Source of the DNA: Escherichia coli
GTDB lineage: Bacteria; Pseudomonadota; Gammaproteobacteria; Enterobacterales; Enterobacteriaceae
Length of the DNA stretch: 64,000 bases
Assembly: GCF_003018115.1 (NCBI RefSeq)
Contig: NZ_CP027457.1
Direction: 5' to 3' (one strand)
Every line of letters starts with the position of its first letter. The stretch's first letter is position 1. Shown here piece by piece: positions 36,901-39,900 of this stretch. Position numbers: made by a program.

Positions 36901-39900
36901 ATTCCTATTGGTATTACAATGAATGGATAATAGCAATGCGTATTAACCATGGCAATAGCAAAACGTGTTTTGACCATCAATACGCAAGCGTATAAATTAA
37001 AACTTATGAAAAAAGAAACTCTTGCTGATCGCTTAAACCTAGCGATGGAACAATCTGGGATGTCTCAAGGCGCTCTTGCAAAGGCGTCTGGCGTAGCTCA
37101 ACCCACAATCTGGAGACTGACAAGCGGCAACGCGCGCGGCTCAACAAAAATTGTTGAAATAGCGAATGCATTGGGTGTTCGAACAGAGTGGCTCTCATCA
37201 GGCATAGGCCCGATGAGAAATGACGGTCAACAATCAGGGAAGCCTACTGTCAACCATTCCAAATACTTCAAGATTGACGTTCTTGATATAGAAGTGAGTG
37301 CCGGGCCGGGAGTCATCAACCGTGAGTTTGTAGAAGTCCTACGCTCGGTTGAGTACTCGTTTGACGATGCTCGTCACATGTTCGATGGCAGGAAGGCGGA
37401 AAATATCCGCATCATTAACGTACGTGGTGACAGCATGTCAGGAACAATCGAACCAGGTGATCTGCTGTTCGTTGATATCACGGTTAAATCTTTCGACGGT
37501 GATGGCATCTATGCGTTTCTGTACGACGACACAGCCCATGTAAAGCGCCTGCAAATGATGAAGGATAAGCTGTTGGTTATCTCTGATAACAAGAGCTACT
37601 CACCGTGGGACCCGATCGAGAAAGACGAGATGAACCGGGTGTTCATTTTTGGGAAAGTCATCGGGAGCATGCCGCAGACCTACAGGAAGCATGGGTAGGT
37701 AGTATGTAAAGAATTACCTTTGGTTGATTTGTAATAGCTACCGATTACGTTATCGGTAGCTATAAGAAATTTTTATGTCTTTAACTGTGTTTATTTATTC
37801 AATACTAGTTGGACTATAGCAATGAAAGATAACAGACAAAAAGTCGTTCATTATAAAAAAGCAGTAATCCCACACAGCAAATCATCATTACAAAACATAC
37901 TACTTAGTATTATAGGTGAGGGCGGCGTTGCAGAAAAAGTACTTAGTAGACAAGAAAAAATAACACCTTCAGATGAAAATTCGGGGTATCGTTTCTTAAA
38001 TAAAAGCGACACATACAAAACTATACTTTTTGGGCAACTGGTTTTATTTGAAAAAGACAAAAGCCAGTCTCTATTAGAGCTTAGTGATAATGTTAAATTT
38101 TATGACATTAACTCCATCACGTCTAATGATATAATTATTGATGGAGATAAACGTAGTGACAAAAAAAGAGAGTTTGTAGATTCAATTTTATATTTTGGTG
38201 TACTAAACAACCATGTCATGATCGTTCAATCCACATCGCTTCGAGCAAGGGAGCTTGAGGCGCATTTGAATTGGCTAATTAATACATTCACAGATGAAAA
38301 AGAATCTGTGTTAATGCTTCAAGATAAGCCATCCGAAGAAACGATGAAAAAAATGGAGAAAGCACCAGCCAAGAGCATAAAAATTGGTGGATTACCCATT
38401 ACTTCAGAAGTTAAAAATTCAGAGAACCAAACACCCTCCTTTTCAAATGGTTCGGTGAAGACAATAAAATACCGCCCAATAGGGAAAGGAGGTGCGCTAC
38501 TAAAAGCATTTTTTGGCGATAACTGGGCAAATGATATAAACATTAAAGATTCATTAGATGAGGCCAATTTACAAGTAAGCCTCGAGATTACATACTTCAG
38601 AAAAACAAATGATAGCGGTCAAGCTGTTATAGACAGTATTGCTACCTCACTACGACATCTAGATGAGGATGATATTAGCATCAAACTTCAAGGCGGTGGG
38701 GAAATAACGGGAAAAGAGATAAAATTATCCGGAAAAATTAGCGTTGAACATAACAATGGCATTATTGATGAAAATGATTTATTCTTAAAAATGCATAAGT
38801 GGCTGTTCTCAAAACTTGATGCCGGAGAATTGGTTGCAAAATAACCTACCAAAAGGAGGGCGATAATGAAATCGAACATCATCCACCTTATTGGTATGTT
38901 GGTCTTCTATTTTGCTGGTTACTTTTTGTTCAAGTTAGCATTGGGCTATATTACACCGGGTGTTGTCCTAACAGCTCCGTGGGCTGTGGTTGGACTCATG
39001 CAATTGCCATTATCATATTGTATACAAGCCATTTTTAAGGCAAATGAGGCCAATGACCACTCGTCTTTAACCCCTAGTGAGGTTAGGCGATTAGTGCCAA
39101 TAGTCAAATCCAAGAGACTGAAATTGGTTTTATTATTAGCTTTCTATGTATTTTCAACTTTGTTTGTAATCTTGGGGTTAATAGCAAGCACAAATGATCA
39201 AGCCCTACTCTTCAGGGTCTTAAAAATTTCAGGTGGATTACTCTTTATTTCTCTCTATACCAGTGTATTCGTTCATAAAATAATGGTTGAGCTTCAAGAG
39301 TTTAAAGCGTTATTAAACCGAAGAGAATCAGAGAAGAAGGAAAGAGAGTCACTCCTTGATAGATTAAAATGACCCCCCCTCCCCGGCCGTCGTGCCGGGT
39401 TTTCTTTTGCCTCCCCTCATCACACACCGTTCAAAAAACCACCATAACCCCCGCTTCAGTTATCGCTATGCGATGCAAGTCACAAAATTAATTCCTTTTG
39501 CTATCAAACAGTTAATATCAAAATACATCAATCAATAGCAATAAGTATTGATATCACCAATAGCAATAGCTATTATTACCATGTCGCAACAACACAACGA
39601 TACGGCAACCACCTGATTCGCCGTTGCGATGACCGCTTAGATCCGCAGCTTGAATTTCAGCAGGCTCCGGGGAGTGCGAGGGGTGAAGCGGACGCGTGAA
39701 CGTCGGTGTGACCAGCTGAAATCAACTCAACACTTCATACCTCAGTCGCTTCAACGAGGCGGCTTAGTTATGACAACCGGCGGCCATCCACCGCCTGAAT
39801 ACGCGCAGAAGTCTCTATATGTTCAGCAGCCCAGCTTACGGGCAGGAGTTTTTATGGTTCATCAACATTACGGAACTCAGACCGTTAATCGCGGTGCCGT

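What the first reader, a model, noticed from the sequence alone, without database searches (positions are those of the whole stretch)
37734..37763. Strong hairpin between cI and the rexA-position gene
A 30-nt element with perfect 12-bp arms and a 6-nt loop, followed by a T-rich tract, lies in the 124-bp gap between the cI stop and the downstream cassette. It could act as an attenuator or terminator controlling how much PRM transcription reaches the cassette, or as a protein-binding palindrome.
Basis: seen in the sequence. Interest (0 to 1): 0.3.

Follow-up and report, generated by a model that had tools for sequence, protein, structure and literature searches.

The report
Young hairpin before a RexA-like gene
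The hairpin is real and far beyond chance, but it is a young, lineage-specific inverted duplication in the leader of a RexAB-type cassette of a lambda-like prophage; at most it is a leaky brake on transcription coming from the repressor gene, not a true terminator and not a conserved element.

Summary
37734-37763 is a perfect 12-bp/6-nt-loop hairpin (RNA dG -17.7 kcal/mol, z -7). No hairpin of this size appears in shuffles of the window. It is the core of a 44-bp palindrome, 37727-37770.

The hairpin always travels with this cassette and occurs nowhere else. Sister cassettes at 81-82% protein identity share the right arm and the leader but lack the left arm. Other cassettes behind the same cI have no such hairpin. 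It therefore looks like a recent inverted duplication, so covariation cannot be tested.

It is not a canonical terminator: the stem is A/U-rich at its base, the T-run starts 6 nt after it, and the terminator score is negative. The real immunity terminator at 39382 scores positive.

Published LF82 RNA-seq gives gene A RNA at 0.2-0.9 of cI RNA in four conditions and about 5.5 times cI in one. This fits leaky decoupling plus a second input.

Best reading: a transcribed intercistronic stem-loop with a modest effect on RNA. A neutral scar is nearly as likely. Interest is low.

The parts
37734..37763 (+). Perfect 12-bp stem, 6-nt loop hairpin (the finding)
37727..37770 (.). Full 44-bp near-palindrome (19/22 complementary, no spacer). 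The right half is homologous to the leader of sister cassettes; the left half is its inverted copy.
   Evidence: I1
37770..37782 (+). T-rich tract TTTTTATGTCTTT. It begins 6 nt after the perfect stem, and directly after the weaker extended stem 37726-37771.
37716..37728 (+). ACCTTTGGTTGAT, a likely fossil of a lambda-type cI 3' end (lambda has ACGTTTGGCTGAT). It marks the gap as a recombination scar.
   Evidence: 20 of 1000 shuffles score as well; the stronger parallel is in L026 (0 of 1000)
37724..37751 (+). Best promoter-like match in the gap: TTGATT, 16-nt spacer, TACGTT (the -10 hexamer is the hairpin loop). Weak candidate only.
   Evidence: 7.9 bits, 99.98th percentile of the window; PRM-like and pL-like sites score about 13
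36949..37698 (+). cI repressor (HTH plus S24 peptidase). The true start is probably ATG 37006, as annotated in phage Perceval.
36970..36998 (+). PRM-like promoter TTGACC, 17-nt spacer, TAAATT. It would give a near-leaderless cI mRNA starting at 37006.
37822..38844 (+). Gene A, 340 aa, RexA fold (phrog_3482)
38866..39372 (+). Gene B, 168 aa, with four hydrophobic segments (RexB-like role). It is annotated as a transmembrane protein in Perceval.
38568..38596 (+). Candidate internal promoter for gene B, a pLIT analogue (TTTACA, 17-nt spacer, CATACT). An alternative candidate lies at 38442-38470.
   Evidence: LF82 RNA-seq shows B well above A
39382..39408 (+). tIMM-like intrinsic terminator CCCGGC-CGTCGT-GCCGGG followed by TTTTCTTTT. 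It forms the right boundary of the exchangeable cassette.
   Evidence: kil RNA is at background in LF82
39548..39576 (+). pL-like promoter, overlapped by cI operators (39534-39550 and 39559-39575)

Best explanation
The hairpin is a recently born, lineage-specific inverted duplication in the 5' leader of a RexAB-type cassette that sits directly behind the cI repressor gene of a Perceval-type lambdoid prophage.

Origin (inferred from comparison): the right half of the palindrome is the ancestral leader. About 25 nt carrying an inverted copy of it was inserted next to a fossil cI 3' end, probably by a template switch seeded on the small palindrome TAGCTA.

Mechanism (inferred): transcripts from PRM (and PRE) that run past the cI stop must fold this sequence into an -18 to -21 kcal/mol stem-loop. 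That stem-loop acts as a leaky RNA-level boundary. It could cause pausing with weak termination at the U-rich tract reached through the imperfect stem extension. It could also act as a barrier or processing point that lets cI RNA and cassette RNA decay separately. The effect is a modest, condition-dependent lowering of gene A RNA relative to cI RNA.

It is not an efficient terminator. It is also not needed for the cassette to work, because sister cassettes lack it.
For: Structure:
- The fold is strong and dominant in context.
- It lies on the sense strand, 36 nt after the cI stop and 58 nt before the gene A start.
- An extended stem (37726-37771, -20.7 to -21.2 kcal/mol) is followed directly by UUUAUGUCUUU, tail score 3.37.

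Expression:
- LF82 carries the same element (H144).
- The published per-gene RNA-seq of LF82 gives gene A/cI ratios of about 0.2-0.45 (LB), 0.5 (MB1), 0.7-0.8 (B1) and 0.7-0.9 (MB6) (PMC9928086, S1 and S4 tables).

Origin:
- Sister cassettes L023-L028 (81-82% aa identity) align from the right arm onward: GGTAGCTACAAAAATT against GGTAGCTATAAGAAATT (6 of 1000 shuffles score as well). They have no left arm, and their leaders are unstructured.
- The gap contains a fossil cI 3' end.
- The gap plus cassette forms a near-identical block (5 differences across 37663-39440) inside diverged flanks (30 and 14 differences).
- Phages with the same cI but other cassettes diverge exactly at the cI stop.
Against: - It fails terminator criteria. 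The scan does not call it. The terminator score is -56 for the perfect stem and -12 for the extended stem, against +22 for the tIMM-like site and +19 for lambda tIMM (the formula was recalled from d'Aubenton-Carafa 1990).
- In LF82 condition B6, gene A RNA is about 5.5 times cI RNA. Attenuation alone cannot produce that.
- Gene-level counts cannot separate termination from RNA stability or from a separate promoter.
- Relatives show no conservation and no covariation can be tested. All ~57 sampled copies (41 E. coli genomes, 12 viral contigs, 4 metagenome contigs) are identical in the hairpin, but the expected number of SNPs is only about 0.1, so there is no power to detect selection.
Confidence: 0.45

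Rival explanations
1. Neutral scar. The palindrome is only a by-product of an inverted duplication or template switch at a recombination junction. It is tolerated because it has no meaningful effect on expression.
For: - It is absent from the nearest sister cassettes and from every more distant relative.
- The gap is a patchwork of fossil cI 3' ends, as in L026 and lambda.
- All copies belong to one young, near-identical block, so perfect arms need no selection.
- Read-through appears high in most conditions.
Against: - An -18 kcal/mol stem with pair probabilities above 0.9 in a transcribed intercistronic region is unlikely to have no effect at all on RNA polymerase or on RNases.
- All three mismatches of the 44-bp palindrome fall outside the 12-bp core (chance about 0.08; computed). 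This is a weak hint of constraint.
- Gene A/cI falls to 0.2-0.45 in LB.
Confidence: 0.33
2. DNA-level element. The palindrome is an operator overlapping a separate, condition-responsive promoter for gene A (-35 TTGATT at 37724, -10 TACGTT in the loop). It would be bound by a dimeric host or phage protein.
For: - This is the best promoter-like match in the gap and it is centred on the palindrome.
- Gene A RNA exceeds cI RNA about 5.5-fold in one LF82 condition, which needs an input other than PRM.
- The symmetry includes the central ACGT, which an RNA loop does not need.
Against: - The promoter is weak: 7.9 bits against about 13 for the PRM-like and pL-like sites, and the standard scan does not call it.
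- No candidate regulator is known.
- The phage's own cI operators do not match (10.4 bits against 18.6-24.1).
- RexA homologues bind DNA non-specifically (PMC11077077).
- 44 bp is long for an operator.
- It is not conserved in sister cassettes.
Confidence: 0.12
3. Efficient intrinsic terminator that insulates the cassette from PRM. The cassette would then be expressed only from its own promoters.
For: A stable hairpin with a U-rich tract nearby. Gene B clearly has its own strong expression.
Against: - The U-run is 6 nt from the stem, the stem base is A/U-rich, and the terminator score is negative.
- Gene A RNA is 50-90% of cI RNA in three conditions.
- No convincing promoter lies between the hairpin and the gene A start.
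Confidence: 0.07

Closest known systems
Lambda cI-rexA-rexB immunity operon (PRM/PRE read-through, pLIT inside rexA, terminator tIMM)
   Same: - Same gene order and strand behind cI.
- Gene A has the RexA fold, and gene B is a small protein with four hydrophobic segments.
- A tIMM-like terminator almost identical in form to lambda's lies just before pL.
- Gene B RNA is much higher than gene A RNA, as expected for a pLIT-like internal promoter.
- The gap after cI is of similar size (123 against 112 nt).
   Different: - No sequence similarity to RexA or RexB.
- Lambda's cI-rexA gap has only a modest 6-bp hairpin (-8.9 kcal/mol; gap z -1.8), and no terminator is described there.
- Gene A RNA can exceed cI RNA here, whereas lambda rexA is described as transcribed only from PRM.
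Intercistronic stem-loops that set differential mRNA levels within operons (for example REP in malEFG, the pap and puf operons; from general knowledge)
   Same: A stable hairpin between two cistrons on the sense strand, with unequal RNA levels on the two sides.
   Different: It is single copy and not a member of any repeat family. No RNA ends have been mapped, and it is not conserved among relatives.
Rho-independent terminators
   Same: A stem-loop with a loop of permitted size and a U-rich tract downstream.
   Different: The stem has 5/12 G-C pairs and an A-U base. The U-run is displaced by 6 nt. The site is not called by the scan and has a negative terminator score.
Quasipalindrome / template-switch mutations that create or perfect inverted repeats (from general knowledge)
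   Same: One arm is ancestral and the other is its inverted copy inserted beside it. The small palindrome TAGCTA lies in the copied segment.
   Different: The event is inferred from comparison only. No allele from before the insertion was found.

Membership tests
Rho-independent terminator | Stable stem-loop with a 3-8 nt loop | tested here: met
   dG -17.7 kcal/mol, loop of 6 nt
Rho-independent terminator | G+C-rich stem, especially at its base | tested here: not met
   5 of 12 pairs are G-C; the four base pairs at the stem base are A-U/U-A/A-U/G-C
Rho-independent terminator | U-tract starting 0-2 nt after the stem | tested here: not met
   AAGAAA separates the stem from the T5 run. The scan does not call it. 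The tail score is 0.19 for the perfect stem; it reaches 3.37 only for the imperfect extended stem, and the terminator score stays negative.
Rho-independent terminator | RNA 3' ends at the U-tract and loss of downstream RNA | tested here: inconclusive
   Only per-gene RNA-seq is available. Gene A/cI is 0.2-0.9 in four conditions and about 5.5 in one. 3' ends are not mapped.
cI operator of this phage (yAATAGC-N4-GCTATTr) | Match to the consensus of the six OR/OL sites | tested here: not met
   The best overlap scores 10.4 bits against 18.6-24.1 for the real operators. Only a half-site, TAATAGC, is present.
Dispersed palindromic repeats (REP/BIME/ERIC, MITEs) | Many copies per genome, in unrelated contexts | tested here: not met
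   One copy in the window. In 5,426 E. coli genomes it is found only in the 41 that carry this cassette. All 12 viral and 4 metagenome hits are the same locus.
Leader-peptide attenuator | Conserved upstream ORF plus alternative terminator and antiterminator structures | tested here: not met
   The 14-codon upstream ORF (37775-37819) lies after the hairpin and is frameshifted in the Perceval allele. No competing structure was found.
RNase III processing site | About 20 bp of coaxial double-stranded RNA; cleavage in vivo | tested here: inconclusive
   18 pairs with two 1x1 mismatches. Cleavage is not testable with these tools.
Known RNA families (Rfam 15) | Covariance-model match | tested here: not met
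   No match up to E = 1 in 36500-40200
RexAB-type exclusion system (context of the hairpin) | RexA-fold protein encoded directly after the repressor gene | tested here: met
   [not shown]
RexAB-type exclusion system (context of the hairpin) | Small polytopic membrane partner (RexB-like) downstream, ended by a terminator before pL | tested here: inconclusive
   Four hydrophobic segments are read from the sequence, and Perceval annotates the gene as a transmembrane protein. There is no sequence similarity to RexB. The terminator feature is met.
RexAB-type exclusion system (context of the hairpin) | Exclusion of superinfecting phage | not testable with these tools
   No phenotype data were found. 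An Acinetobacter homologue is labelled 'DefenseFinder protein' in its record.

The most novel reading that the evidence does not exclude
The 44-bp palindrome is not primarily an RNA element. It would be the operator of a separate, environment-responsive promoter for the RexA-like gene, with the -10 hexamer in the hairpin loop. This would explain why gene A RNA rises to about 5.5 times cI RNA in one LF82 growth condition. It would also mean that a regulatory site was created de novo by a single inverted-duplication event in the leader of a defence cassette.
Probability: 0.1. Interest if true: 0.45.

Novelty: new member of a known kind. Interest (0 to 1): 0.2.

Why it matters
The value is modest. 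The hairpin shows how an accessory defence cassette behind a prophage repressor can become partly uncoupled from the repressor's promoter.

It also offers a ready natural experiment. Sister cassettes with and without the left arm exist, and the element is present in the well-studied strain LF82, for which RNA-seq data are already public.

The surrounding gap is a clear example of stacked recombination scars (fossil repressor 3' ends) at a cassette-exchange hotspot.

None of this changes current understanding of lambdoid immunity regions.

Tried and rejected
1. cI operator. I derived the operator consensus from six OR/OL sites and scanned the window; the hairpin is only a half-site.
2. Dispersed repeat or mobile-element end. 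It is single copy and always sits with this cassette. The right-hand hairpin at 39382 is the backbone terminator shared by 458 genomes, not a cassette end repeat.
3. Conserved structural element of the cassette family. No equivalent hairpin lies upstream of relatives in viral contigs, SfIV, Stx2a_1447, Acinetobacter phages or 14 genomes of other genera. SfIV and Stx2a_1447 instead carry an unrelated GC-rich bidirectional terminator.
4. General feature of cassettes behind this cI. Nine other cassette leaders have no comparable hairpin.
5. Rfam match: none.
6. Leader-peptide attenuation or translational coupling through the 14-codon upstream ORF. This ORF is frameshifted in the Perceval allele.
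7. Terminator for minus-strand transcripts. No U-tract follows the hairpin on that strand.
8. Sequence homology of gene A or B to RexA or RexB, and PDB, Pfam and PADLOC hits: none. Only fold comparison worked.
9. Search for an allele from before the insertion, with the right arm and leader but no left arm. All 41 E. coli genomes and all 4 metagenome hits carry the complete hairpin.
10. Literature search for the GevTA/HipAD phage set returned nothing usable.

Full report
**1. Observation**

The sequence at 37734-37763 is ATAGCTACCGAT-TACGTT-ATCGGTAGCTAT, with 12 perfect pairs and a 6-nt loop.
- As RNA it folds at -17.7 kcal/mol. Shuffles average -3.7, z = -7.05, and none of 200 shuffles folds as well.
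- In a 501-nt context the stem pairs keep probabilities of 0.91-1.00.
- Only two perfect hairpins of 12 bp or more exist in the 64-kb window, and none appeared in 100 dinucleotide-preserving shuffles.
- The element is single copy.

Three details differ from the finding.
- The gap is 123 nt, not 124.
- The T5 run begins 6 nt after the stem.
- The symmetry extends to a 44-bp near-palindrome, 37727-37770, with 19/22 positions complementary and no spacer.

**2. Context**

The window holds a lambdoid prophage of the Perceval type (Bievrevirus; OV696612, 98.3% identity over 36900-39650). The + strand corresponds to lambda's leftward direction. The layout is:
- Cro-like and cII-like genes on the - strand.
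- cI at 36949/37006-37698 (HTH plus S24 peptidase).
- The 123-nt gap.
- Gene A (340 aa) and gene B (168 aa, four hydrophobic segments).
- A tIMM-like terminator at 39382.
- A pL-like promoter at 39548, followed by kil, gam and bet.

**3. Who carries the hairpin**

Phages and E. coli genomes with the same cI but other cassettes (GevTA, HipAD and several unknowns) lose similarity exactly at the cI stop codon. Their leaders contain no comparable hairpin. On the other side, similarity shared by 458 genomes resumes at 39380, the terminator.

The hairpin occurs in 41 of 5,426 complete E. coli genomes, including LF82. It also occurs in 12 viral contigs and 4 metagenome contigs. It is always next to this cassette and this cI type, and always identical.

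Between the window and phage Perceval there are 30 differences in 36900-37662, only 5 in 37663-39440, and 14 in 39445-39620. The gap and the cassette therefore form one recently exchanged block.

**4. Relatives and origin**

Cassettes at 81-82% protein identity (L023-L028) also lie behind a repressor gene. Their leaders align with the window only from the right arm onward: GGTAGCTACAAAAATT against GGTAGCTATAAGAAATT (6 of 1000 shuffles score as well). They lack any left arm and are unstructured (z about +1).

In those relatives the leader is preceded by a roughly 35-nt linker that also follows cI in lambda, HK544, mEpX1 and VT1-Sakai.

The stretch between the window's cI stop and the palindrome contains ACCTTTGGTTGAT, which resembles the lambda cI 3' end ACGTTTGGCTGAT (20 of 1000 shuffles). 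L026 shows a stronger stack of such fossil cI ends (0 of 1000).

I infer that the right half of the palindrome is ancestral leader and the left half is an inverted copy inserted beside it. This looks like a template-switch type event, and the small palindrome TAGCTA lies in the copied segment. No allele from before the insertion was found.

More distant relatives have no equivalent hairpin. These include SfIV and Stx2a_1447, where the cassette sits in the Q-S region, Acinetobacter prophages, and 14 genomes of other genera. The hairpin is therefore lineage-specific, and covariation cannot be tested.

**5. Is it a terminator?**

The consensus scan does not call it, although it calls the terminator at 39382. 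The stem has 5/12 G-C pairs with an A-U base, and AAGAAA separates it from the U-run.

I applied a terminator score whose formula I recalled from d'Aubenton-Carafa 1990:

| Element | Score |
|---|---|
| Perfect stem | -56 |
| Extended imperfect stem (37726-37771, -20.7 kcal/mol, tail UUUAUGUCUUU) | -12 |
| tIMM-like site at 39382 | +22 |
| Lambda tIMM | +19 |

On the minus strand no U-tract follows the hairpin. At best this is a weak terminator acting through the extended stem.

**6. Expression evidence from the literature**

LF82 carries the element (H144). The re-analysis of GSE154648 by Misson et al. 2023 (PMC9928086) gives log2(fpkm+5) in five conditions:

| Gene | B1 | B6 | BLB | MB1 | MB6 |
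|---|---|---|---|---|---|
| cI | 8.0 | 7.1 | 6.3 | 7.9 | 6.75 |
| Gene A | 7.6 | 9.6 | 4.7 | 6.9 | 6.4 |
| Gene B | 9.2 | 10.3 | 9.05 | 9.6 | 8.95 |

kil stays at background, 2.3-3.4, in all conditions.

- Gene A/cI is about 0.2-0.45 in LB, 0.5-0.9 in three other conditions, and about 5.5 in B6.
- This is compatible with a leaky boundary between cI and gene A.
- It excludes an efficient terminator.
- It requires a further input, either a promoter or differential RNA stability.
- Gene B's excess over gene A fits a pLIT-like internal promoter, as in lambda. Candidates lie at 38442-38470 and 38568-38596.
- The background level of kil shows that the tIMM-like terminator works.

**7. DNA-level readings**

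The phage's cI operators follow yAATAGC-N4-GCTATTr, with three sites at OR and three at OL. The hairpin contains only the half-site TAATAGC and scores 10.4 bits, against 18.6-24.1 for the real sites.

The best promoter-like match in the gap is TTGATT, a 16-nt spacer, then TACGTT, with the -10 hexamer in the loop. It scores 7.9 bits, against about 13 for the PRM-like and pL-like sites. This keeps an operator-on-promoter reading alive at low probability. RexA homologues bind DNA non-specifically, so autoregulation through this site is not expected.

**8. Verdict**

The attenuator idea is plausible only in a weak, leaky form. The terminator idea fails the sequence tests.

The most likely account is a young inverted duplication that is transcribed as an intercistronic stem-loop with a modest effect on the cI-to-cassette RNA ratio (0.45). 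A neutral scar is close behind (0.33). A DNA operator or promoter (0.12) and an efficient terminator (0.07) are less likely.

This is an ordinary kind of element without conservation, so interest is low. The context (a RexA-fold cassette and stacked fossil repressor ends) is more informative than the hairpin itself.

Noticed in passing
[not shown]
   Followed up: partly
window 38442-38470 and 38568-38596: Promoter-like sites lie inside the 3' half of gene A. Published LF82 RNA-seq shows gene B RNA at roughly 1.6- to 25-fold the level of gene A, by condition (81-fold above prophage background). This suggests an analogue of lambda pLIT.
   Followed up: partly
window 37699-37733; L026 1840-2090; lambda 37190-37226: The stretch after cI holds fossil 3' ends of other repressor alleles. 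L026 has a second copy of the Perceval-type cI end followed by a lambda-type end (SMWPDKTFG*). A roughly 35-nt linker after lambda cI is shared with HK544, mEpX1, VT1-Sakai, L023 and L026. In one reading frame it encodes LIGKVFWSAHS*, possibly another fossil repressor end.
   Followed up: partly
window 36893-36976 and 39487-39581; also 31182-31199 (- strand): Six cI operator-like sites fit yAATAGC-N4-GCTATTr, three at OR and three at OL. One further high-scoring site (CAATAGCAGCAGGTATTT, 17.6 bits) lies about 5.7 kb away at 31182.
   Followed up: no
window 36949-37008: The longest cI reading frame starts at 36949. The PRM-like promoter (36970-36998) and the Perceval annotation point instead to ATG 37006, which would make the cI mRNA near-leaderless, as in lambda.
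   Followed up: partly
window 37775-37819: A 14-codon upstream ORF (MSLTVFIYSILVGL*) ends 2 nt before the gene A start, and L026 has a 12-codon ORF in the same place. The 1-nt indel at 37783 frameshifts it in the Perceval allele, so it is probably not functional.
   Followed up: yes
window 1-34: A 13-bp perfect hairpin, GCTCCCAATGCAA-AACATATA-TTGCATTGGGAGC, lies at the very start of the window. It is the only other perfect hairpin of 12 bp or more in the window.
   Followed up: no
window 33685-34071 (- strand): A 128-aa ORF next to the replication genes contains a sequence that I recognise from memory as a small multidrug-resistance (EmrE-like) transporter. No family search was run on it.
   Followed up: no
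lambda 37099-37226 (L045 1816-1927, - strand): Lambda's own cI-rexA gap contains a modest hairpin, AGGGGA-N8-TCCCCT (-8.9 kcal/mol), about 45 nt before the rexA start. It has no U-tract and I know of no assigned function.
   Followed up: partly
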